DNA of 32,000 nt, from positions 332,745 through 364,744 of the forward strand of contig CP028150.1 in assembly GCA_003028315.1 (NCBI GenBank), in the 5' to 3' direction. Below the pieces are notes generated by a model. That model was not told the DNA's origin. It saw nothing but the letters and a program-made list of their open reading frames with translations, and did no database searches. The number at the start of each line of letters is the position of its first letter. The first letter of the stretch is position 1. Below, one piece after another: positions 10,234-17,159 of the stretch. Source of the stretch: Neisseria mucosa. Lineage in GTDB: Bacteria; Pseudomonadota; Gammaproteobacteria; Burkholderiales; Neisseriaceae. Both the position numbers and the translations under genes were made by a program.

Positions 10234-10272
10234 AGGTCGTCTGAAACTGAATGTATGGGTTTCAGACGACCT
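10234..10272 (+). terminator. Inverted DUS pair terminator of upp; its 3' end is the left prophage junction
   Basis: AGGTCGTCTGAA (10234-10245) pairs with TTCAGACGACCT (10261-10272). Confidence 0.7.
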
Positions 10273-10360
10273 TATATATTTCGCTTCCGTTAAGGGAGCG
10301 TAAAATACATTTAGAACCCCTTGACAAATTCGATTAACCGACATTTGAGAGGGGTCTAAA

Positions 10361-11296
10361 ATGTTTTTACAGCAACAAATTGAGTTTCAGCAGCAAGCGG
10401 CCGCGAAGCGTGCCGTGCTTCCTTGTCTAAATAGTAACAACTGCATTGACGAAAAAAATACCAATGTAATCAAGGAAAAGCAAAAACCCGCAAGTATAGA
10501 AAAATACCTGCCGAACACAGCAAAACCCGAATTCAACGAATTTTCCACCTCACACAAGAAATCCGCCGCCGCCCTTGAGATGAATGTACGCCAATTCATC
10601 GAAGTTTTCGGAATTGAAAAGGTCGGATTCCTTACCCTCACATTTGCCGACGAAGTACAAGACGTTAAAGAGGCAAGCCGCCGCTTTCACAGCCTGCGCA
10701 CAAACTTTCTTAAAAAGCATTTCGAACACTATGTCTGTGTATACGAGCGCATGAAAAGCGGTCGTATTCACTTCCATCTTATCGTCAACACCCGCGAAGA
10801 CATCCGCCGCGGTCTGAATTTCCAACAAATTCAAGCTCGTAACTACACAAGCGCAAATAAAAATCTACGTCAGCTTTGGCAAGTTCTCCGTGAAAACATG
10901 GAAAAGTACGGATTCGGACGATCCGAACTGCTGCCCGTTAAAACCAACAGCAAAGGTCTTGCCAGATATGTTGGCAAGTACATCGCCAAACACATTGATA
11001 GCCGTCTGCCTGAAGACAAAGGCTACCGTCTTATTCGTACCACCATAGACAAAAAACAGTTGTGGAAGATTGCGAACAGCAATTTTTCGTTTGTATCCGC
11101 AGGTTCGCGCCAGTGGCGCGAGAAGCTGCAAAAGTGGGTTATCTGCATTGAACCCCTTTTACAGGCGCATGCCGAGCTTTTTTACGAAAGAAAGCCCAAA
11201 AAGATTACAGAGGACAATTACAACGCCGTCCTATCAGCCCTTTTAAGCCCGAAATGGGCGTTTTATAACCGAGAAACCATCATCAATATGCCCTAA
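10361..11296 (+). CDS. Phage rolling-circle replication initiator (HUH endonuclease)
   Basis: 311 aa. RCR motif 1 FLTLTF, motif 2 RIHFHLIV (HUH), motif 3 ARYVGKYIAKH (catalytic Tyr). GAGAGGGG SD. The first ~74 aa are low-complexity, so the true start could be internal. Confidence 0.8.
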   Translation: MFLQQQIEFQQQAAAKRAVLPCLNSNNCIDEKNTNVIKEKQKPASIEKYLPNTAKPEFNEFSTSHKKSAAALEMNVRQFIEVFGIEKVGFLTLTFADEVQDVKEASRRFHSLRTNFLKKHFEHYVCVYERMKSGRIHFHLIVNTREDIRRGLNFQQIQARNYTSANKNLRQLWQVLRENMEKYGFGRSELLPVKTNSKGLARYVGKYIAKHIDSRLPEDKGYRLIRTTIDKKQLWKIANSNFSFVSAGSRQWREKLQKWVICIEPLLQAHAELFYERKPKKITEDNYNAVLSALLSPKWAFYNRETIINMP

Positions 11297-11316
11297 GTTG
11301 GCAGAAAGGAAACATC

Positions 11317-11586
11317 ATGTCTCAAGAAAACGAACGCAAACAAGGTATTTTCGTCATCGCCGCATTTGACCGAATGTTCACACGCGAACGCAAAAACCAA
11401 GACGGCACATTCAGCAAAACCCACTATGTCGGTCTGATTATCCGTTCAGACACCGAAACCCGCCTTTGCGAAGTCCGCACCAAACATCCCGAAAAGTACG
11501 AGCAGTATAAACCGCAGCAAATCGTCTCCATGCAGGTATTTCCCCGTGCATTTAAAGACAACATCTACTATTCGGACGAAGCATAA
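11317..11586 (+). CDS. Phage ssDNA-binding protein (gene V position)
   Basis: 89 aa, immediately after rep. GAAAGGAAAC SD. Assigned by size and position as in Ff/Nf phages, with no motif-level proof. Confidence 0.55.
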   Translation: MSQENERKQGIFVIAAFDRMFTRERKNQDGTFSKTHYVGLIIRSDTETRLCEVRTKHPEKYEQYKPQQIVSMQVFPRAFKDNIYYSDEA

Positions 11587-11591
11587 ACCAG

Positions 11592-11619
11592 TTTCAGGGG
11601 TTCGGCGGTGTCCCCTGAA
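11592..11619 (+). promoter_or_regulatory. Hairpin between the ssDNA-binding and coat genes
   Basis: TTCAGGGG (11593-11600) pairs with CCCCTGAA (11612-11619). An alternative stem is GGCGGTGT/ACACCGCC. It shares the 14-mer TTTCAGGGGTTCGG with 15850-15863. Confidence 0.4.
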
Positions 11620-11673
11620 TTGACCCCGAAACACCGCCATAACCATTTTTTTAACTCCATAAAGGAAAACATC

Positions 11674-11895
11674 ATGAGTATCAAAACCAAATTTCAAAAA
11701 GCAGCCGCATTTGTAACCGTTTCAGCATTGCCGGTAATGGCATTCGCAGAAGATAGCGGCATGGTTGAAGCCGCCAAAACGGAACTCGGTGGATTGAAAA
11801 CAGGCATTATTGCCGTCGGCGCAGTTGCTGTTGCTTTGGCTGTTGCCGCCGTTTCCATCAGTGTTATCAAATCCGCAGTGAAACGTTCCGCATAA
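11674..11895 (+). CDS. Inovirus major coat protein
   Basis: Trimmed to the ATG at 11674 (AAAGGAAAAC SD). 73 aa: signal peptide MSIKTKFQKAAAFVTVSALPVMAFA, acidic mature N-terminus EDSGMVE, hydrophobic core GIIAVGAVAVALAVAAVSISVI, basic tail KSAVKRSA. Confidence 0.85.
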   Translation: MSIKTKFQKAAAFVTVSALPVMAFAEDSGMVEAAKTELGGLKTGIIAVGAVAVALAVAAVSISVIKSAVKRSA

Positions 11896-11903
11896 GGTGC
11901 AAC

Positions 11904-12206
11904 ATGGGTTATCAGGTCGGTCGAATATGTCATGAAACGGCAGAGCAGGCAAAAAACGAAGTGATGACCCAAGTCGTACCGACCATAGATAAAGACGGGG
12001 TGCTGCATCACCCCGTTTTTAACGGGCAGACTTGGACTTATAACGAACAGACCGTAAAACTTCAGTTTCCGCAGTGCGACAGCATGAAATATTACCGTCT
12101 CGGCGAACAAATCGGCATACAGATGATGTTTGTAATGATTTCACTTTTTGCCGTTGTCGTTATTGTGAAACTGGTTTTATGGCAGAGAGAAAGAAATGAA
12201 GAATGA
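11904..12206 (+). CDS. Phage minor protein with C-terminal TM anchor
   Basis: 100 aa. AAGGTG SD. C-terminal helix MMFVMISLFAVVVIVKLVLW. Overlaps the next gene by 11 nt. Confidence 0.6.
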   Translation: MGYQVGRICHETAEQAKNEVMTQVVPTIDKDGVLHHPVFNGQTWTYNEQTVKLQFPQCDSMKYYRLGEQIGIQMMFVMISLFAVVVIVKLVLWQRERNEE

Positions 12207-13977
12207 CACCCGAATCAGCGTTTTTACTGGGTATGGTAAAGCCCCTAACATTAGCCGTCTTTCTGTATGTCTTGGCTCGCTCTTGGTCGTAGGGCAGGCA
12301 TGGGCAGACGCAGGACTGCCGCCGCCAGCACAACATCAGGGGGCGGGTTTCCCGTCTGAGCAAGCATTAAGACAAAAGGGCTACGACCCGAAAACGGGCG
12401 TATGGCGAGTGCAAAGCCAAAACAACGGCAGACCGACCGTAACCAAGTCGGGCGATACCATCAAGGGGTCACAACCGAAGACCGTAACCGTAACGGGCAA
12501 TTATGGAGAAAAGGGAACGATTCGGACGACACAAACGCAGACTGTAAGCTCGTCAAAATTGCAGAATACTATAAATGGCGTTTGGGCAGGTGGTGCATTG
12601 GCAGCTTCGGTTGATAAACATAGTGGTTTGATGGGAGCAAGAATAAGGTCAGGAGATTATAAAGGTGCTGTCGAAAGTGGTGTTTTAATGGCTGGTACCT
12701 TTGGAAATAATTTGTTTGGAGGAATTGCAGAGTCCTTGGGGAATTTAGGACGTGGATTAGGTTTGATTGATAGCCCGTCTCCTCAAGATTTAAGACAAGC
12801 TGGAGAACGTTTTTATCAATGGCAAATGCAGAAGGAACAAAGCGGTCAATTAGGCGAAGCAGTCGCAGCCGCAGCCGCCCGAAAAGCAGCCGAAGGAGCA
12901 GCAGAAGCAGCCAAACAGCAAGAGCAATGGCAGAAAGCAAAAGAAAGTCAAAAAGAAAATGGTCTTTATCCCGTCAACGTTATTTTTAGGGAACAATCGC
13001 CAACGGGGAAAATATATTACTCAAACAAAATATATTATTCATATTTAAAAAATTTTTATAACAATAATAATGGTGTAAATCAAGGTGGTTCGGCAAAAAT
13101 TTATTTAAGAGGTGTGCAAGGTGATTATGTTTATTATCAATTTAAAGATAAGAATTCTAGTACTGTTGGAGTAGAAGCATCATCGACTTTTAAACCTGAC
13201 CCACAAAAAACAGTCGAAAATATGACGCTCAATCAAAAGGATATCAAAGACATATTAGAGCGTATGTTGAATAACCAACAGACTAACCATGCCGAACTGA
13301 TGAATCAGTTGTCCAAAATTGGCGATTCCGTTGAAAAATCCACGATTTCGAATGAATTCACGCCGATGACCGCCGATTCAGCACCCTACACCCCGCAAGG
13401 CAGCAATACACCTCAACAAACAAGATTCACGATAAATAGAGACGGTTCGATTACGACAACCATTATTCCGCGTCCTGATCTGAAACCAAATTCAACCCTA
13501 GCACCGACACGCAGCGAAATAATACCGACACCGAATAAAGGACAGAACACACCGACAACACCCAATAGTCCGAATACACCTACAACGCCTGATAGTCCGA
13601 ATGTACCGACGACACCGAACATTCCGAATACGCCGAACAATCCGACAGGGCAGCAAAATCAAAACCAAGAGAATCAGAAGCAGGACTTTTGTCAGCAAAA
13701 CCCGAATGCTGCTCAATGTATGCCGGGTGGCGATGCGAGCTATGAAGACATCGTCTTGCCTGAAAACACAATAGATTTGGATTTCAAGCCTTTGGACGTA
13801 TTCCAGTCTGACGGGACGTGTCCCGCTCCCCGTTCCGTCGATTTCGGTGCATTGGGACAGGTAGAGTTCAGTTATGACCCGTTGTGCGATTTGGCGCGCA
13901 AGCTTCGCCCTATCTTCATCGCAATATGCGTGCTGACCTGTGCCTATTTTGTCTATGAATCCGTAAAGGAATTGTGA
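12196..13977 (+). CDS. TspB-like / pIII-analogue adsorption (receptor-binding) protein, mosaic
   Basis: 593 aa. Signal peptide ending VVGQAWA-DA, Gly-rich and Ala-rich segments, a low-GC central cassette, a Pro-rich linker (aa 444-484), a Cys-containing C-terminal domain and a membrane anchor IFIAICVLTCAYFVY. It is the largest ORF and sits where TspB/ORF6 sits in MDA/Nf phages. Confidence 0.65.
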   Translation: MKNDTRISVFTGYGKAPNISRLSVCLGSLLVVGQAWADAGLPPPAQHQGAGFPSEQALRQKGYDPKTGVWRVQSQNNGRPTVTKSGDTIKGSQPKTVTVTGNYGEKGTIRTTQTQTVSSSKLQNTINGVWAGGALAASVDKHSGLMGARIRSGDYKGAVESGVLMAGTFGNNLFGGIAESLGNLGRGLGLIDSPSPQDLRQAGERFYQWQMQKEQSGQLGEAVAAAAARKAAEGAAEAAKQQEQWQKAKESQKENGLYPVNVIFREQSPTGKIYYSNKIYYSYLKNFYNNNNGVNQGGSAKIYLRGVQGDYVYYQFKDKNSSTVGVEASSTFKPDPQKTVENMTLNQKDIKDILERMLNNQQTNHAELMNQLSKIGDSVEKSTISNEFTPMTADSAPYTPQGSNTPQQTRFTINRDGSITTTIIPRPDLKPNSTLAPTRSEIIPTPNKGQNTPTTPNSPNTPTTPDSPNVPTTPNIPNTPNNPTGQQNQNQENQKQDFCQQNPNAAQCMPGGDASYEDIVLPENTIDLDFKPLDVFQSDGTCPAPRSVDFGALGQVEFSYDPLCDLARKLRPIFIAICVLTCAYFVYESVKEL

Positions 13978-13978
13978 A

Positions 13979-14260
13979 ATGAACTGGGCTTCATTGATAA
14001 CCGGCGTCCTCATGTCCGTAGCAGGGCGCATACTGACCGCCGTAGGTTTGAGTTTTATTTCAGTAACAGGACTGAATTCTTTGCAGAGTTATTTCATAAA
14101 CGAAATAAGTCGAAGTATCGGCGGTTTCCCCGACGAAGCTTTGCAAATCCTGTATATAGCGGGATTTGGTGTCATTCTGAACTGGATATTTGGCGCATTC
14201 AGCTTCGTCATATCCCTAAAAGGCTTTAAAAAACTGTCTACCATCATTCAGTCGAAATAG
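13979..14260 (+). CDS. Small phage membrane protein (pVI position)
   Basis: 93 aa with about three hydrophobic segments. AAGGA SD. Starts 1 nt after the preceding stop. Confidence 0.6.
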   Translation: MNWASLITGVLMSVAGRILTAVGLSFISVTGLNSLQSYFINEISRSIGGFPDEALQILYIAGFGVILNWIFGAFSFVISLKGFKKLSTIIQSK

Positions 14261-14269
14261 GAAGAAAAC

Positions 14270-15445
14270 ATGTTATATCTGTTTACAGGCGTACCCGGTT
14301 CGGGCAAGACACTTCAAGTAGTTTCCATGCTCGCCAAACGCAAAGATTTTAAAAACCGTCCCCTGTTCATTGACGGCATACCTGATTTAAAAATACCCCA
14401 CGAAGAAATACCCGAAGGCGAAAGCATTAAAACGTGGCCCAAATGGGCGCCCGACGGTGCAATCATCGTCGTTGACGAATGTCAGCGTATATTTCGCCCC
14501 CGTTCCAGTAGTTCCGCCGTTCCCGACTATGTCGCAGAACTGGAAACCCACAGACACAGAGGATTAGACTTCCTGCTTATTACACAGCATCCTCGCCTTA
14601 TAGACGTACACCTCCGCTCCCTGATTGAACACCATACCCATTTCGGAAAGACCAACCTAGGACTTCGCCGCAAGCTCGAATGGACGACAGGGGGCGCAAA
14701 AGAACCCGAAAGCAGGGCGAACATCAAAGAAGCCCTTGTCAGCGTATATAAGCTCGATAAGAGCGTGTACGGACTGTACAAGTCAGCCGAAGAACACACC
14801 AAAATCAGAACCAAGCGCAGCAAGGTTCTGTACCTGATACCCGTCGCAATAGCCATGCTTGGCGGAGGTTTGTATTATTTCGCTTCCTTTTGGAAAAATT
14901 TGGAAAAACCCATAGAGACAGCGGGACAGACGGCACAGGCACATATTGCCGCGCCAGCGGCAAGCCCCGAAGCGCAGGCGGCAGCCGCTCCCGCGGCGGA
15001 CGACGGCGCAGCGGGGCGCTACGCAGCCGCAAAGGTGCAAACGCCGTCCGAACCGCCAAAGCCCCATCTGACTGAAGAAGACTATAAGCCCCGTATCGAA
15101 GAACGTCCTGAAACCGCCCCGATATACGACGGCATGAACAAAGCCGTAAAAGTCATGCCGTGGCCTGCTGCCTGTATCAAAGCAGAGAACCGCTGCACCT
15201 GCTATACCGACCAAGGAACGAAGATTAAAGACATCGGCAAACAAACCTGCCTGAACTATGTAAAAGACGGCTTGCCGTTTAATCCGTACAAAGCTCAAAC
15301 AGCCGAAAACGCCAAACCGACGCAGACAGCCTACACTCCTGACGCCCCGCAGGTCTTGACAATGGGCGGTCAGATCCCGCAGAATTTGATGTATGACGGA
15401 TACAATGATAAAGCCCTTACCAATGTGGGCGGGAAAATAAATTAG
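14270..15445 (+). CDS. Zot-like / pI assembly ATPase
   Basis: 391 aa. Walker A at the N-terminus (LFTGVPGSGKT), Walker B-like IIVVDECQ, a central TM (VLYLIPVAIAMLGGGLYYFASFW), and an Ala/Pro-rich periplasmic C-terminal part. Confidence 0.85.
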   Translation: MLYLFTGVPGSGKTLQVVSMLAKRKDFKNRPLFIDGIPDLKIPHEEIPEGESIKTWPKWAPDGAIIVVDECQRIFRPRSSSSAVPDYVAELETHRHRGLDFLLITQHPRLIDVHLRSLIEHHTHFGKTNLGLRRKLEWTTGGAKEPESRANIKEALVSVYKLDKSVYGLYKSAEEHTKIRTKRSKVLYLIPVAIAMLGGGLYYFASFWKNLEKPIETAGQTAQAHIAAPAASPEAQAAAAPAADDGAAGRYAAAKVQTPSEPPKPHLTEEDYKPRIEERPETAPIYDGMNKAVKVMPWPAACIKAENRCTCYTDQGTKIKDIGKQTCLNYVKDGLPFNPYKAQTAENAKPTQTAYTPDAPQVLTMGGQIPQNLMYDGYNDKALTNVGGKIN

Positions 15446-15452
15446 GGAAACG

Positions 15453-15644
15453 ATGAATGCATTAGAATTTGTTATTTCGTGTTTGGTTGTGTATGCAATA
15501 ATTCATATTCATAGAAAGCATGGCACGGCTTATTTCAAAATGTTGATTAAAGAATTTGGCATTTTTATTTTTGGTCTTGCTATTATTTTTCTTGTATTAT
15601 GTGCCGCAGGGGTTTTAATGTTCGCAGCTCAATCGCACACCTAA
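15453..15644 (+). CDS. 63-aa two-TM hydrophobic protein, low-GC cargo position after zot
   Basis: AGGGA SD 6 nt upstream. Two hydrophobic helices (ALEFVISCLVVYAIIHI; FGIFIFGLAIIFLVLCAAGVLMFA). My hand count is 63 G+C in 192 nt (~33%). Confidence 0.5.
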   Translation: MNALEFVISCLVVYAIIHIHRKHGTAYFKMLIKEFGIFIFGLAIIFLVLCAAGVLMFAAQSHT

Positions 15645-15650
15645 CCACAA

Positions 15651-15727
15651 GTCAAGGGGAGGGCGTCCAGAAAGATTTGTAAAGACGGCTTTATTGTCTT
15701 TATAAATCTTTTTGGATACCCCTTGAC
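15651..15727 (+). other. 77-nt imperfect hairpin, candidate phage packaging signal or origin element
   Basis: GTCAAGGGG..CCAGAAAGATTT..AAAGAC-ggctttatt-GTCTTT..AAATCTTTTTGG..CCCCTTGAC. Starts 7 nt after the last morphogenesis-side ORF. Confidence 0.5.
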
Positions 15728-16006
15728 GCTAACCCACCCAAAGACGCTGCCCGCAAGGGGTGGGGTGTGTTTTTTACCCCACCCTCTGCCACGTGGCGAA
15801 CGTCGCCGAAGGCAAAAAGAGTCCAAAGCCCTGAACGGGTAACCAACCCTTTCAGGGGTTCGGATTCATGACCCGAACCGCAGTCCGCGACTTCCAAAGC
15901 ACGACCAAAGCTACAGCTTGGAAAAAAGATAGAAGCGCGGGCTTTTTGTACATACTCAGTTTGAACACTATACAAGGCTGCGAGCCTGAATAAATAAGGC
16001 AAAACA

Positions 16007-16954
16007 ATGTACTACCTAGGGATAGACGTATCAAAGAAAACCATAGATTGCTGTCTGATTTCAGACAGCATTTTTTATGAACGGAGGTTTGACAACACAG
16101 AGGACGGATTCGGACGGTTGGACGACTGGATACAGGAGTACACAGCCGAAGCAGTGCATTGCTGTTGCGAATCGACAGGAATCTACCACGAAGCCATAGC
16201 CGCCCACCTAAGGCAGAAACACACCGTAAGCATAGTCAATCCAAGCAAGATAAAAGGCTTCAGAGAAGCCGAACAGACACGAACCAAGACCGACAGGCAG
16301 GACGCTAGGCTGATAGCCGAATACTGTCGAAGAATGCAGCCGCAAGCATGGCAGCCGCCGACAGAAGAGCAAGAATACCTCCAAGCCATCACAGACTATA
16401 TAGCTCGCCTTAAGCAGCAGAGAGCCGCAGAGCAGACCAAACACCAAACCGCCCCCGATACTATCCGCCATCACATACAGACCACAATAGACCATCTGAA
16501 CAGGCTTATAGCAACCGTACAAAACGAACTCAAAGACTTCTACCGCCAAAATCCAATATACAACGAAAAGAAGAACCGCCTGAAAACCATAGACGGTATA
16601 GGCGAATCCGCCGCTTCTGCCCTGCTCGCCAAACTCATACGCTACGACTTTGCAAATCAAAACCAATTTGCCGCTTACCTCGGTTTAGACCCAAAAATCA
16701 AAGATTCGGGGACAAGCGTCAAAGGAAAGTCCCGAATATCAAAACAGGGGCAAAAGAACGCCCGTAAAGCCCTGTATATGCCCGCCCTCGTCGCTTACCG
16801 TATGAACGCCTTTCCAGCCTTTACAGCCCGCCTCAAAGCGAGGGGAAAGCCCCCGAAGCTGATAATAGTCGCCATAATGCGAAAACTGGCCGTCATTGCC
16901 TACCAACTGTATAAAACAGGTAAAGATTACGACCGTTCCCGATACCGAAATTAG
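16007..16954 (+). CDS. IS110/Piv-family DEDD recombinase (transposase) of the prophage
   Basis: 315 aa. N-terminal RuvC-like DEDD signatures ([28 protein letters not shown]). C-terminal Tnp domain with [14 protein letters not shown] and [34 protein letters not shown]. Confidence 0.9.
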
Positions 16955-16971
16955 ACAGCGGCATGAAAAAA

Positions 16972-16991
16972 CGCCCCGAAAAATCGGGGCG
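16972..16991. other. GC hairpin at the extreme right end of the prophage
   Basis: CGCCCCGA-aaaa-TCGGGGCG. A6 precedes it on the + strand, so on the minus strand it reads as hairpin plus T6. It lies 3 nt before the right GACCTT. Confidence 0.5.
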
Positions 16992-17052
16992 CAGACCTTG
17001 TGTATCTTTAAGATATGTAAATGTTGTTGACGGTGGAATACACTATCTTTTT

Positions 17053-17159
17053 TATAGTGGATTAAATTTAAATCAGGACAAGGCGACGAAGCCGCAGACA
17101 GTACAGATAGTACGGCAAGGCAACGCAACGCCGTACTGGTTTAAAGTTAATCCACTATA
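17053..17159. mobile_element. Correia repeat-enclosed element (short ~107-bp form)
   Basis: TATAGTGGATTAAATTTAAATCAGGACAAGGCGACGAAGCCGCAGACAGTACAGATAGTACGG...CAACGCCGTACTGGTTTAAAGTTAATCCACTATA. It has the canonical Correia terminal inverted repeats and TA ends, with the internal segment missing as in the short class. Confidence 0.9.

What the first reader, a model, noticed from the sequence alone, without database searches (positions are those of the whole stretch)
15730..16080. Structured 5' leader of the prophage IS110-family recombinase looks like a bridge/seek guide RNA for phage integration
What the sequence shows:
- The DEDD recombinase gene (16007-16954) is preceded by 362 nt with no credible ORF. 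Only ~40 nt follow it before the element end. This is the IS110-subgroup layout, in which the guide RNA lies 5' of the recombinase.
- The leader is packed with stems: 15829-15835/15851-15857, 15857-15863/15873-15879, AGGCT-gcg-AGCCT at 15975-15987, and GTACAT 15948-15953 / ATGTAC 16007-16012. The last two create a large internal loop.
- TATACAAGG (15969-15977) is the reverse complement of CCTTGTATA. The right junction reads CCTTGTGTA (8/9).
- AAATAAGG (15992-15999) is the reverse complement of CCTTATTT. The left junction reads CCTTATAT (7/8).
- Forward GCAGTCC (15880-15886) matches the phage right end GCAGACC (6/7).
- Forward ACGACC (15901-15906) matches the host left flank ACGACC (6/6).

These are candidate right and left target and donor guides sharing the CT core.

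Established knowledge:
- IS110/IS1111 recombinases use a bispecific RNA encoded next to the recombinase gene (2024 work on IS621 and seekRNA).
- Nf prophages were proposed in 2005 to integrate through their own Piv/IS110-type transposase at CT-containing sites, with an inverted CTtat upstream of the transposase.

Inference: integration of this filamentous phage is RNA-programmed. Each match is short and individually near chance.
Basis: partly seen in the sequence, partly recalled or inferred. Interest (0 to 1): 0.8.

Follow-up and report, generated by a model that had tools for sequence, protein, structure and literature searches.

The report
Bridge RNA guiding filamentous phage integration
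The non-coding stretch in front of this Neisseria filamentous prophage's IS110-type recombinase very probably encodes a bridge RNA like that of IS621, with one loop matching the phage's own joined ends and the other matching the host DNA-uptake-sequence terminator where the phage sits, so the phage seems to choose its integration site with a guide RNA.

Summary
Window 15880-16005 is a two-loop RNA gene directly 5' of an intact DEDD/Ser recombinase. A covariance model built from 27 related phage leaders hits the window only there (103.6 bits). It also finds the experimentally validated IS621 bridge RNA, which was not in the model (34.6 bits, E 1e-5).

Thirteen empty-site metagenome contigs and circular phage genomes confirm this.

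With the corrected ends:
- LTG ACGACC (15901-06) copies the host DUS left flank.
- RTG+HSG AAAAAAGAUA (15922-31) is complementary to attR.
- LDG ACACUAU (15965-71) copies the phage right end.
- RDG AUAAAUAAGG (15990-99) is complementary to attL (9/10).

Across about 95 relatives in about 33 lineages, guides covary with attP and with targets: three DUS dialects, dRS3 and others. Four helices show compensatory changes.

The element differs from IS621. It is a 6.8-kb inovirus, and its bridge RNA lies about 5.6 kb from the junction promoter. No expression or activity data exist. I found no paper describing this.

The parts
10271..17048 (+). Integrated inovirus (Nf-type prophage), from the CT core at attL to the CT core at attR. 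Gene order: Rep, small ORFs including a weakly coat-like one, TspB-like, DUF2523, Zot, bridge RNA, recombinase.
   Evidence: Pfam hits: REP_ORF2-G2P, Neisseria_TspB, DUF2523, Zot. The boundaries come from the divergence of flanks among 7 copies and from 13 empty sites that join 10272 to 17049.
10260..10272 (+). attL host side: left target TTTCAGACGAC plus core CT (10271-72). This is the 3' arm of an inverted DUS pair that forms the terminator of the upstream host gene.
   Evidence: The same 14-mer, GTTTCAGACGACCT, is a host repeat, with 31 copies of TTCAGACGACCT in the window. It is present in the empty sites.
10273..10281 (+). Right donor (RD) TATATATTT, the phage left end. It contains the -10 element TATATT (10275-80) of the junction promoter.
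   Evidence: It follows LD-CT in circular relatives, e.g. L008 ACACTAT-CT-TATATATT. The promoter is called across attP in L008.
15857..15879 (+). 5' stem-loop directly before the target loop (GGTTCGG...CCGAACC). It is probably the counterpart of the IS621 5' stem-loop.
   Evidence: It is in the MFE fold. A hairpin occupies this position in most relatives, but the alignment register was too poor to count pairs.
15880..16005 (+). Core of the bridge RNA gene: target-binding loop followed by donor-binding loop.
   Evidence: It is the only hit of model R1 in the window: 103.6 bits, E 3e-20, with the next best at 11 bits.
15883..15942 (+). Target-binding loop (TBL). The basal stem is 15883-94 paired with 15932-42. 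The distal hairpin is 15906-20.
   Evidence: The 11-12 basal pairs are 94-99% paired across the family, and all show compensatory changes.
15901..15906 (+). Left target guide (LTG) ACGACC. It has the same sense as host ACGAC plus core C (10266-71).
   Evidence: LTG changes with the target: ACGACC with the GTCGTCTGAA-type DUS, ACGGCC with GCCGTCTGAA, GUAGCC with the GGCTACCTGAA-type, CCCGCC with dRS3.
15922..15931 (+). Right target guide AAAAA (15922-26), core-pairing AG (15927-28) and handshake guide AUA (15929-31). Together they are complementary to attR top strand TAT-CT-TTTTT (17044-53).
   Evidence: Together with G15932, this is an 11/11 match to attR. RTG-RT covariation: mean contiguous match 4.66 against 1.73 when shuffled, 0/20000. 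Within this clade, GGAAAAA pairs with TTTTT and GGGAAAA with TTTTC in 6/6 loci.
15959..16005 (+). Donor-binding loop (DBL). The closing stem is 15959-62 paired with 16002-05. The distal hairpin is 15975-87.
   Evidence: The distal hairpin is 94% paired with compensatory changes. The closing stem is 85-88% paired, with A:U to U:A swaps.
15965..15971 (+). Left donor guide (LDG) ACACUAU. It has the same sense as the phage right end ACACTAT (17040-46).
   Evidence: There are 10 LDG variants across the family. The cognate LDG+CT is found downstream of the recombinase in 62/64 loci, against 0/576 non-cognate tests. It is exact in 13/13 circular genomes where attP was located independently.
15990..15999 (+). 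Right donor guide AUAAAUA (15990-96), core-pairing AG (15997-98) and handshake G (15999). Complementary to attL top strand C-CT-TATATAT (10270-79) at 9 of 10 positions.
   Evidence: UAAG goes with CTTA and CAAG with CTTG in all lineages. The G always faces the C that ends every left target.
16007..16954 (+). IS110-family (DEDD/Ser) recombinase, 315 aa.
   Evidence: Pfam. It is 37% identical to the IS621 recombinase. D7/E55/D96/D99/S234 align with IS621 D11/E60/D102/D105/S241.
16971..16992 (+). GC-rich hairpin after the recombinase gene (ACGCCCCGAAAAATCGGGGCGC).
   Evidence: The terminator scan called this hairpin as terminator-like only on the - strand, and called a partly overlapping weaker site at 16985-17000 on the + strand. 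The sequence is conserved for a further 50 nt in all copies.
17027..17048 (+). -35 element TTGACG (17027-32), left donor AATACACTAT (17037-46) and core CT (17047-48). This is the phage right end.
   Evidence: The junction promoter TTGAC(G/T)-18 nt-TATATT is called in circular L008. IS621 has the equivalent TTGCAG...TATTAT.
17049..17053 (+). Right target TTTTT, the host T-run after the DUS terminator.
   Evidence: It is contiguous with the DUS in the empty sites.

Best explanation
Window 15880-16005, probably starting at the 15857 stem-loop, encodes a bridge RNA of the IS110/IS621 type. It serves the recombinase encoded immediately downstream.

Proposed mechanism:
1. The RNA has two internal loops. 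The donor-binding loop carries a copy of the phage right end (ACACUAU) on its 5' strand. Its 3' strand carries the complement of core plus phage left end (AUAAAUA-AG), so it recognises the joined ends, ACACTAT-CT-TATATAT, of the circular replicative form (attP).
2. The target-binding loop carries ACGAC-C on its 5' strand and AAAAA-AG on its 3' strand. It therefore recognises ACGAC-CT-TTTTT, which is the 3' arm of a host DNA-uptake-sequence terminator plus its T-run (attB).
3. A recombinase tetramer holding both loops exchanges strands at the CT core. The handshake bases (AUA after the RTG, G after the RDG) pair with the incoming non-cognate strand, which favours insertion.
4. The result is the observed prophage, DUS-CT-TATATAT ... 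ACACTAT-CT-TTTTT.

Shown here: the anatomy, the homology to the IS621 bridge RNA, the true junctions and empty site, guide/att covariation, helix covariation and the catalytic residues.

Inferred from IS621 work: that the RNA is made, that it binds the recombinase, and that it is required. The strand-exchange chemistry is also inferred.
For: - Model R1, built from 27 related leaders, hits the window once, at 15880-16005 (103.6 bits). It also finds the IS621 bridge RNA full-length (L098:145-284, 34.6 bits, E 1.3e-5). IS621 was not in the seed.
- R1 hits just upstream of the recombinase in all relatives where that DNA is held.
- Helices: 87% of cells are paired against 59.6% when shuffled and at most 44% when slid. 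23 of 26 pairs show changes on both sides. On the CM alignment the figures are 91% against 62.5%.
- Junctions: flanks diverge at 10271 and 17048 in 7 copies. 13 empty-site contigs carry exactly LT-CT-RT. Circular genomes carry LD-CT-RD.
- Donor loop: LDG equals LD in 13/13 circular genomes where attP was located independently. Cognate LDG+CT is found in 62/64 loci against 0/576 non-cognate. RDG U/C covaries with RD A/G.
- Target loop: RTG-RT contiguous match is 4.66 against 1.73+-0.23, 0/20000. LTG-LT is 3.72 against 2.22+-0.28, 0/20000. Targets include three DUS dialects and dRS3.
- Handshake positions behave as in IS621.
- All five IS621 catalytic residues are conserved.
Against: - There are no transcript data.
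- No sigma-70-like promoter was found on the + strand between 15400 and the RNA, so the 5' end and the source of transcription are unknown.
- Rfam has no matching family, and the published IS110 covariance models were not available.
- In this copy the LDG does not match the core (ACACUAU-AC against ACACTAT-CT), and the LTG matches only the C of the core.
- The guides are short: 5-6 nt per side.
- One close relative (L005) sits in a DUS that differs from its LTG by one base. A few loci (L061, L026, L038) match their RTG poorly.
- The RDG has one internal mismatch.
Confidence: 0.88

Rival explanations
1. The leader holds only ordinary inovirus intergenic elements: a packaging signal, a minus-strand origin, operon terminators and a 5' UTR that controls recombinase translation. 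The matches to the ends would be coincidental.
For: A 77-nt near-perfect hairpin (15651-15727) and a hairpin with a T-run (15747-75) lie in the leader. Every relative has a long unrelated hairpin upstream. The GTACAT/ATGTAC stem covers the start codon.
Against: These elements lie upstream of 15857 and are not part of the modelled RNA. The 15880-16005 segment is homologous to the IS621 bridge RNA. Its loop sequences change together with attP and with the targets in dozens of lineages. An origin or a UTR would not be expected to do this.
Confidence: 0.04
2. The copies of the end sequences in the leader act as double-stranded DNA sites, for example recombinase arm-type binding sites, rather than through an RNA.
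For: LDG and RDG are a direct and an inverted copy of the phage ends. Sequence alone cannot tell DNA from RNA.
Against: The target loop copies host sequence that is absent from the phage ends. Four helices show compensatory changes, which indicates a folded single strand. The homologous IS621 element is known to act as RNA (PMC11208160, PMC11208158).
Confidence: 0.04
3. The folded guide is the packaged single-stranded phage DNA itself (a 'bridge DNA'), not a transcript. This assumes the plus strand of an inovirus has the same sense as its genes.
For: All genes, and the modelled structure, are on one strand. No promoter was found in front of the RNA.
Against: The recombinase must first be expressed from double-stranded DNA. 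The donor site must be duplex, because LDG and RDG read opposite strands. The IS621 recombinase binds RNA. There is no precedent for this.
Confidence: 0.03

Closest known systems
IS621 / IS110-group bridge RNA (Durrant et al. 2024, PMC11208160; Hiraizumi et al. 2024, PMC11208158)
   Same: - It is encoded immediately 5' of a DEDD/Ser recombinase (37% identity, catalytic residues conserved).
- It has the same order: 5' stem-loop, then target loop (LTG...RTG+HSG), then donor loop (LDG...RDG+HSG).
- It uses a CT core.
- The donor sequence is nearly the same: IS621 ACAGTAT-CT-TGTAT, some phage relatives ACAGTAT-CT-TGTAT, this phage ACACTAT-CT-TATAT.
- A -35/-10 promoter is split by integration.
- The target is an abundant host repeat (REP for IS621, DUS or dRS3 here).
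- The CM hit is full-length.
   Different: - The element is a 6.8-kb filamentous phage, not a 1.3-kb IS.
- About 5.6 kb of phage genes separate the left end and junction promoter from the bridge RNA, so the RNA is not the first product of that promoter.
- The target guides are shorter, about 5+1 and 5-6+2 nt.
- In this copy the LTG and LDG do not pair with the full core.
- Nothing has been tested experimentally.
IS1111-group seekRNA (Siddiquee et al. 2024; cited from my own knowledge and via PMC13604230)
   Same: It belongs to the same recombinase superfamily and uses the same principle of a bispecific RNA.
   Different: seekRNA lies 3' of the recombinase gene. Here only 93 nt follow the gene, and model R1 finds nothing significant there (best hit 6.8 bits). 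The RNA is 5' of the gene.
Nf1-Nf4 / MDA filamentous prophages of pathogenic Neisseria (Kawai et al. 2005, paper not held; as summarised in PMC7058167)
   Same: They share the gene set (Rep, TspB, Zot, IS110/Piv-type recombinase at the end) and integration at a CT inside an abundant repeat. dRS3-targeting relatives are in my set: L023, L088 and L092 show attR ...-CT-GCGCGGGAAT, and L022 and L023 show attL GGATTCCCGC-CT-TATATATT.
   Different: This phage and many commensal relatives target the DUS terminator, not dRS3. The earlier work proposed protein-directed integration by the phage's own transposase. No guide RNA is described in any paper I could search.
CTXphi-type integration of filamentous phages by host XerCD
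   Same: It is an inovirus that lysogenises by site-specific recombination.
   Different: CTXphi uses host tyrosine recombinases and a folded single-stranded attP. Here there is a phage-encoded DEDD/Ser recombinase with an RNA guide and, by analogy with IS621, a duplex attP.

Membership tests
IS110-group bridge RNA (IS621 type) | Non-coding gene directly 5' of an IS110-family DEDD/Ser recombinase with intact catalytic residues | tested here: met
   Pfam domains. D7/E55/D96/D99/S234 align with IS621 D11/E60/D102/D105/S241. The RNA ends 1 nt before the ATG.
IS110-group bridge RNA (IS621 type) | Sequence-and-structure homology to an experimentally validated bridge RNA | tested here: met
   Model R1, which has no IS621 sequence in its seed, finds the IS621 bridge RNA full-length at 34.6 bits, E 1.3e-5. 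The published models were not available. Rfam has no hit.
IS110-group bridge RNA (IS621 type) | Two internal loops in the order target loop then donor loop, each closed by a stem and capped by a hairpin, with the helices conserved through compensatory changes | tested here: met
   The basal stem is 94-99% paired, the DBL hairpin 94% and the DBL closing stem 85-88%. The TBL distal hairpin is only 75%, with alignment register problems.
IS110-group bridge RNA (IS621 type) | Donor loop: the 5' strand equals the left donor and the 3' strand is complementary to core plus right donor | tested here: met
   In the window, ACACUAU equals 17040-46 and AUAAAUAAG is complementary to 10271-79 (8/9). Across the family: 13/13 and 62/64 against 0/576. 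In this copy the LDG does not match the core.
IS110-group bridge RNA (IS621 type) | Target loop: the 5' strand equals the left target and the 3' strand is complementary to core plus right target, covarying with insertion sites | tested here: met
   with the empty site. The LTG covers only 5 nt plus the C of the core.
IS110-group bridge RNA (IS621 type) | Handshake guides complementary to position 7 of the non-cognate substrate | tested here: met
   The TBL base after AG is A in every locus, and it faces the T that ends every left donor (..AT). The DBL base is G, and it faces the C that ends every left target.
IS110-group bridge RNA (IS621 type) | CT core dinucleotide shared by donor and target | tested here: met
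   CT is present at 10271-72 and 17047-48, in all attP sites and in the empty sites.
IS110-group bridge RNA (IS621 type) | RNA transcribed from the promoter rebuilt at the RE-LE junction, immediately upstream of the RNA | tested here: not met
   The junction promoter is present: TTGACG 17027-32, 18 nt, TATATT 10275-80. It is called in circular L008. However, the RNA lies about 5.6 kb downstream of it, behind the phage genes. No promoter of its own was found.
IS110-group bridge RNA (IS621 type) | RNA is expressed, binds the recombinase and is required for recombination | not testable with these tools
   There are no transcriptome or biochemical data.
IS1111-group seekRNA | Guide RNA encoded 3' of the recombinase gene | tested here: not met
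   Only 93 nt lie between the stop codon and the element end. The best R1 hit there is 6.8 bits.
Nf-type neisserial filamentous prophage | Inovirus gene set with a TspB-like protein, Zot and a terminal IS110/Piv-type recombinase, inserted at a CT within an abundant genomic repeat | tested here: met
   Pfam, junctions and annotated circular relatives. The repeat here is the DUS, not dRS3.

The most novel reading that the evidence does not exclude
Inoviruses of the Neisseriaceae have turned the IS110 bridge-recombinase module into a programmable phage integrase. The donor loop is fixed on attP. The target loop has been re-written many times during evolution, so that different phage lineages land in the DNA-uptake-sequence dialect of their own host (GTCGTCTGAA-, GCCGTCTGAA- and GGCTACCTGAA-type), or in dRS3 repeats in relatives that probably come from pathogenic or closely related Neisseria. 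This would be the first described case of a virus that chooses its lysogeny site with a guide RNA. It would explain the 2005 observation on Nf and MDA prophage site choice. The split junction promoter would switch the phage operon off on integration.
Probability: 0.75. Interest if true: 0.8.

Novelty: new variant of a known kind. Interest (0 to 1): 0.72.

Why it matters
It would give a mechanism for how Nf-type phages pick their many integration sites. These phages include relatives of the meningococcal disease-associated phage.

It would also show that bridge recombination in nature already carries 6-9 kb cargoes and serves a virus rather than a minimal IS. The family provides a natural series of re-programmed target loops (three DUS dialects, dRS3 and others) with matched insertion sites.

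It predicts that prophage-borne bridge RNAs could drive the prophage-associated rearrangements seen in gonococcal genomes. It makes site choice directly testable by editing 5-6 bases. It also flags that public inovirus records annotate small hypothetical ORFs over this RNA.

Tried and rejected
- Rfam, at gathering and at E-value thresholds, gave only chance miRNA-like hits on the 77-nt hairpin. No bridge RNA family was found.
- The genome-contig scan with the single protein returned only four near-identical copies. These were useful for locating the ends but not for covariation.
- Megablast against GenBank phages found nothing useful. The protein-mode search was the productive route.
So was my own first thought that the 55 bp beyond it might be a host repeat: it occurs only next to the phage.
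- I considered that the DUS at attL belongs to the phage. I rejected this because circular genomes have no DUS at attP and the empty sites keep the DUS.
- The promoter scan upstream of the RNA found nothing on the + strand.
- The E. coli phage record NC_049343 was cut too short to hold the IS621 left end. OR844797 served instead.
- Kawai et al. 2005 is not in the held library.
- The MAFFT register of the LTG and of the TBL distal hairpin is imperfect, so the LTG statistics are conservative.
Full report
CONTEXT
The window comes from a commensal Neisseria. It carries 31 copies of the AG-mucDUS-type uptake sequence TTCAGACGACCT in 32 kb (dialect names from PMC3630211). The closest relatives of the prophage are in Neisseria sp. 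genomes.

Between 10271 and 17048 lies an inovirus. It encodes a G2P-type Rep, a TspB-like protein, DUF2523 and Zot. At its right end is a 315-aa IS110-family recombinase at 16007-16954. The five catalytic residues defined for IS621 (D11, E60, D102, D105, S241; PMC11208158) align with D7, E55, D96, D99 and S234 at 37% overall identity.

CHECK OF THE OBSERVATION
The left junction is right, but the right junction is not.

It diverges only after ACACTAT-CT-TTTT.

Circular phage genomes from saliva carry the two ends joined as ACACTAT-CT-TATATATT. Thirteen metagenome contigs hold the unoccupied site. There, the host gene's terminator ...GTTTCAGACGAC-CT runs straight into TTTT(T)ATAGTGGATTAA... That is window 10272 joined to 17049.

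The resulting assignments are:

| Part | Sequence | Window position |
|---|---|---|
| Left target (LT) | TTTCAGACGAC | 10260-70 |
| Core at attL | CT | 10271-72 |
| Right donor (RD) | TATATAT | starts at 10273 |
| Left donor (LD) | ACACTAT | 17040-46 |
| Core at attR | CT | 17047-48 |
| Right target (RT) | TTTTT | 17049-53 |

Its LTG (15901-06) and RDG (15992-99) stand.

ANATOMY WITH THE CORRECTED ENDS
- The target loop is closed by the stem 15883-94/15932-42 and capped by the hairpin 15906-20.
- Its 5' strand holds ACGAC-C, a copy of LT plus the first core base.
- Its 3' strand, AAAAA-AG-AUA (15922-31), is complementary to the attR top strand TAT-CT-TTTTT. Counting G15932, the match is 11/11.
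- The donor loop is closed by 15959-62/16002-05 and capped by the hairpin 15975-87.
- Its 5' strand holds ACACUAU, a copy of LD.
- Its 3' strand, AUAAAUA-AG-G (15990-99), is complementary to the attL top strand C-CT-TATATAT at 9 of 10 positions.

This is the IS621 logic. LTG and LDG read the bottom strand. RTG and RDG read the top strand. The bases just 3' of the core-pairing AG are handshake guides that pair with the other substrate after strand exchange (PMC11208160; PMC11208158).

COMPARATIVE TEST
I collected 4 genomic loci, about 80 IMG/VR loci and 12 GenBank inovirus genomes. Their recombinases are 34-97% identical to the window's. The 94 leaders fall into 35 clusters at 90% identity, and 33 of these clusters share the same architecture.

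Donor loop:
- There are ten LDG variants: ACACTAT, ATACTAT, AAGCTAT, ACAGTAT, ACGGTAT, GTAGTAT, GTAGCAT, ATATCAT, CTATCAT and ATACCAT.
- In the 13 circular genomes where attP was located from the RD motif alone, the 7 nt before CT equal the LDG in 13/13.
- The cognate LDG+CT occurs downstream of the recombinase in 62 of 64 loci with enough sequence. Non-cognate LDGs occur in 0 of 576 tests.
- RDG ..UAAG goes with RD CTTA.., and ..CAAG with CTTG.., without exception.

Target loop:
- The contiguous match of RTG to the observed right flank averages 4.66 nt, against 1.73+-0.23 for shuffled pairings (0/20000).
- LTG to left flank averages 3.72 against 2.22+-0.28 (0/20000). This is despite register errors in the alignment.
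- Even within the window's own clade, RTG GGAAAAA goes with TTTTT and GGGAAAA with TTTTC, in 6/6 loci.

Targets differ widely among lineages:

| Target (left-CT-right) | LTG | RTG | Note |
|---|---|---|---|
| CAGACGAC-CT-TTTT | ACGACC | - | as in this window |
| CAGACGGC-CT-TTTxx | ACGGCC | - | - |
| CAGGTAGC-CT-TTTTT | GUAGCC | - | Eikenella-type dialect; assignment from my own knowledge |
| ATTCCCGC-CT-GCGCGGGAAT | CCCGCC | CGCGCAG | the dRS3 repeat known as the Nf1/MDA target (PMC7058167) |
| CTAAAAC-CT-CGTCATT | - | GAUGACGAG | group of 14 loci from IMG isolate-genome records |

Exceptions exist. L005 sits in a GCCGTCTGAA-type DUS with an ACGACC guide. L061 has a right flank that fits another lineage's RTG. 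L026 and L038 match only partly.

STRUCTURE AND HOMOLOGY
On a MAFFT alignment of 31 representatives, the four proposed helices are 87% paired. The shuffled control gives 59.6% (0/500 shuffles as high), and the control with partners slid gives at most 44%. Changes on both sides occur in 23 of 26 pairs. RNAalifold alone recovers the basal stem and the donor hairpin.

A covariance model of 126 positions and 24 pairs gives these results:
- It hits the window only at 15880-16005 (103.6 bits; next best 11 bits).
- It hits directly upstream of the recombinase in every related locus that holds that DNA.
- It hits the IS621 bridge RNA full-length in OR844797 (34.6 bits, E 1.3e-5). No IS621 sequence was used to build it.

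The IS621 copy shows attL ATCAGGC-CT-TGTAT and attR ACAGTAT-CT-ACGCC. This fits the published target ATCAGGCCTAC. Several phage relatives have the very same donor, ACAGTAT-CT-TGTAT.

HOW IT DIFFERS FROM IS621
In IS621 the bridge RNA starts right after a promoter rebuilt at the RE-LE junction. The phage keeps such a promoter: TTGACG at 17027-32, an 18-nt spacer containing LD and the core, and TATATT at 10275-80. The scan tool calls the equivalent TTGACT-18-TATATT across attP of circular L008 with 10/12 matches.

However, that promoter faces the Rep-to-Zot genes. The bridge RNA lies about 5.6 kb downstream, directly before the recombinase. No sigma-70-like promoter was found in front of it.

Its transcription is therefore unexplained. 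It could be read-through from the phage operon, or an unrecognised promoter. Extended read-through transcripts do work for IS621 (PMC13626964).

The handshake bases here pair with the products of insertion. In IS621 this arrangement favours insertion over excision.

LITERATURE
Five full-text searches combined bridge RNA, seekRNA or bridge recombinase with Neisseria, inovirus, filamentous phage or prophage. None found a paper that describes a bridge RNA in these phages. A September 2026 review of the field does not mention phage-borne systems. The library is incomplete, so prior description elsewhere cannot be excluded.

VERDICT
This is a real bridge RNA gene of the known IS110 kind, in an unusual carrier and with an unusual layout. 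The identification is well supported computationally. Function is inferred by homology and covariation and has not been demonstrated.

Noticed in passing
window 17027-17048 with 10273-10280: A sigma-70-type promoter is split by integration. The -35 element TTGACG lies at the phage right end and the -10 element TATATT at the left end, 18 nt apart once the ends are joined. In the circular form it faces the Rep operon, so integration should switch the phage operon off. The same arrangement is seen in all circular relatives and in IS621.
   Followed up: partly
window 15651-15727: A 77-nt near-perfect hairpin lies just after the small ORF that follows zot. Close relatives keep it through compensatory changes (for example C>T with G>A in L006). 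Every distant relative has an unrelated long hairpin at the same place. It may be the packaging signal, the minus-strand origin or an operon terminator. It is not part of the bridge RNA model.
   Followed up: partly
window 16049-16075: A terminator-like hairpin, TGCTGTCTGATTTCAGACAGCA followed by TTTTTT, lies inside codons 15-23 of the recombinase gene. In relatives it reads ...TTCAGACGGC, a true DUS, and it is conserved in lineages down to 46% protein identity. It could end the bridge RNA transcript or attenuate recombinase expression.
   Followed up: partly
window 17053-17159: A 107-bp Correia-type inverted-repeat element (TATAGTGGATTAAAT...ATCCACTATA) abuts the right target T-run. It is also present at the empty sites, so it predates the phage insertion.
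   Followed up: partly
It lies just after the hairpin that follows the recombinase gene. This is unexplained.
   Followed up: no
L005:75-100: The left end of this prophage carries a tandem duplication of core plus right donor: CTTATATATTGCA CTTATATATTGCA.
   Followed up: no
L061:6483, L065 and L056: In L061 the right flank (CT-CCCACAT) does not fit its own RTG, but it fits the RTG of another lineage (L051, GAGUGGGAG). L065 and L056 hold a second bridge RNA copy on the opposite strand. This is compatible with recombination between resident prophages.
   Followed up: no
L008:1413-1661 (OR148970) and similar GenBank inovirus records: The public annotation places small hypothetical-protein ORFs over the leader. 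One of them (1554-1661) overlaps the bridge RNA hit at 1578-1700.
   Followed up: no
L010, L011, L035, L036, L038, L039: This lineage (46% protein identity) has about 48 extra nt in the distal hairpin of the donor loop. The guides remain in their normal places.
   Followed up: no
one search hits H22-H25 (Thermus inoviruses) and H17-H18, H26 (Wolbachia phage WO): Phages of unrelated hosts also carry IS110-family recombinases (28-35% identity). I did not examine whether they carry bridge RNAs.
   Followed up: no
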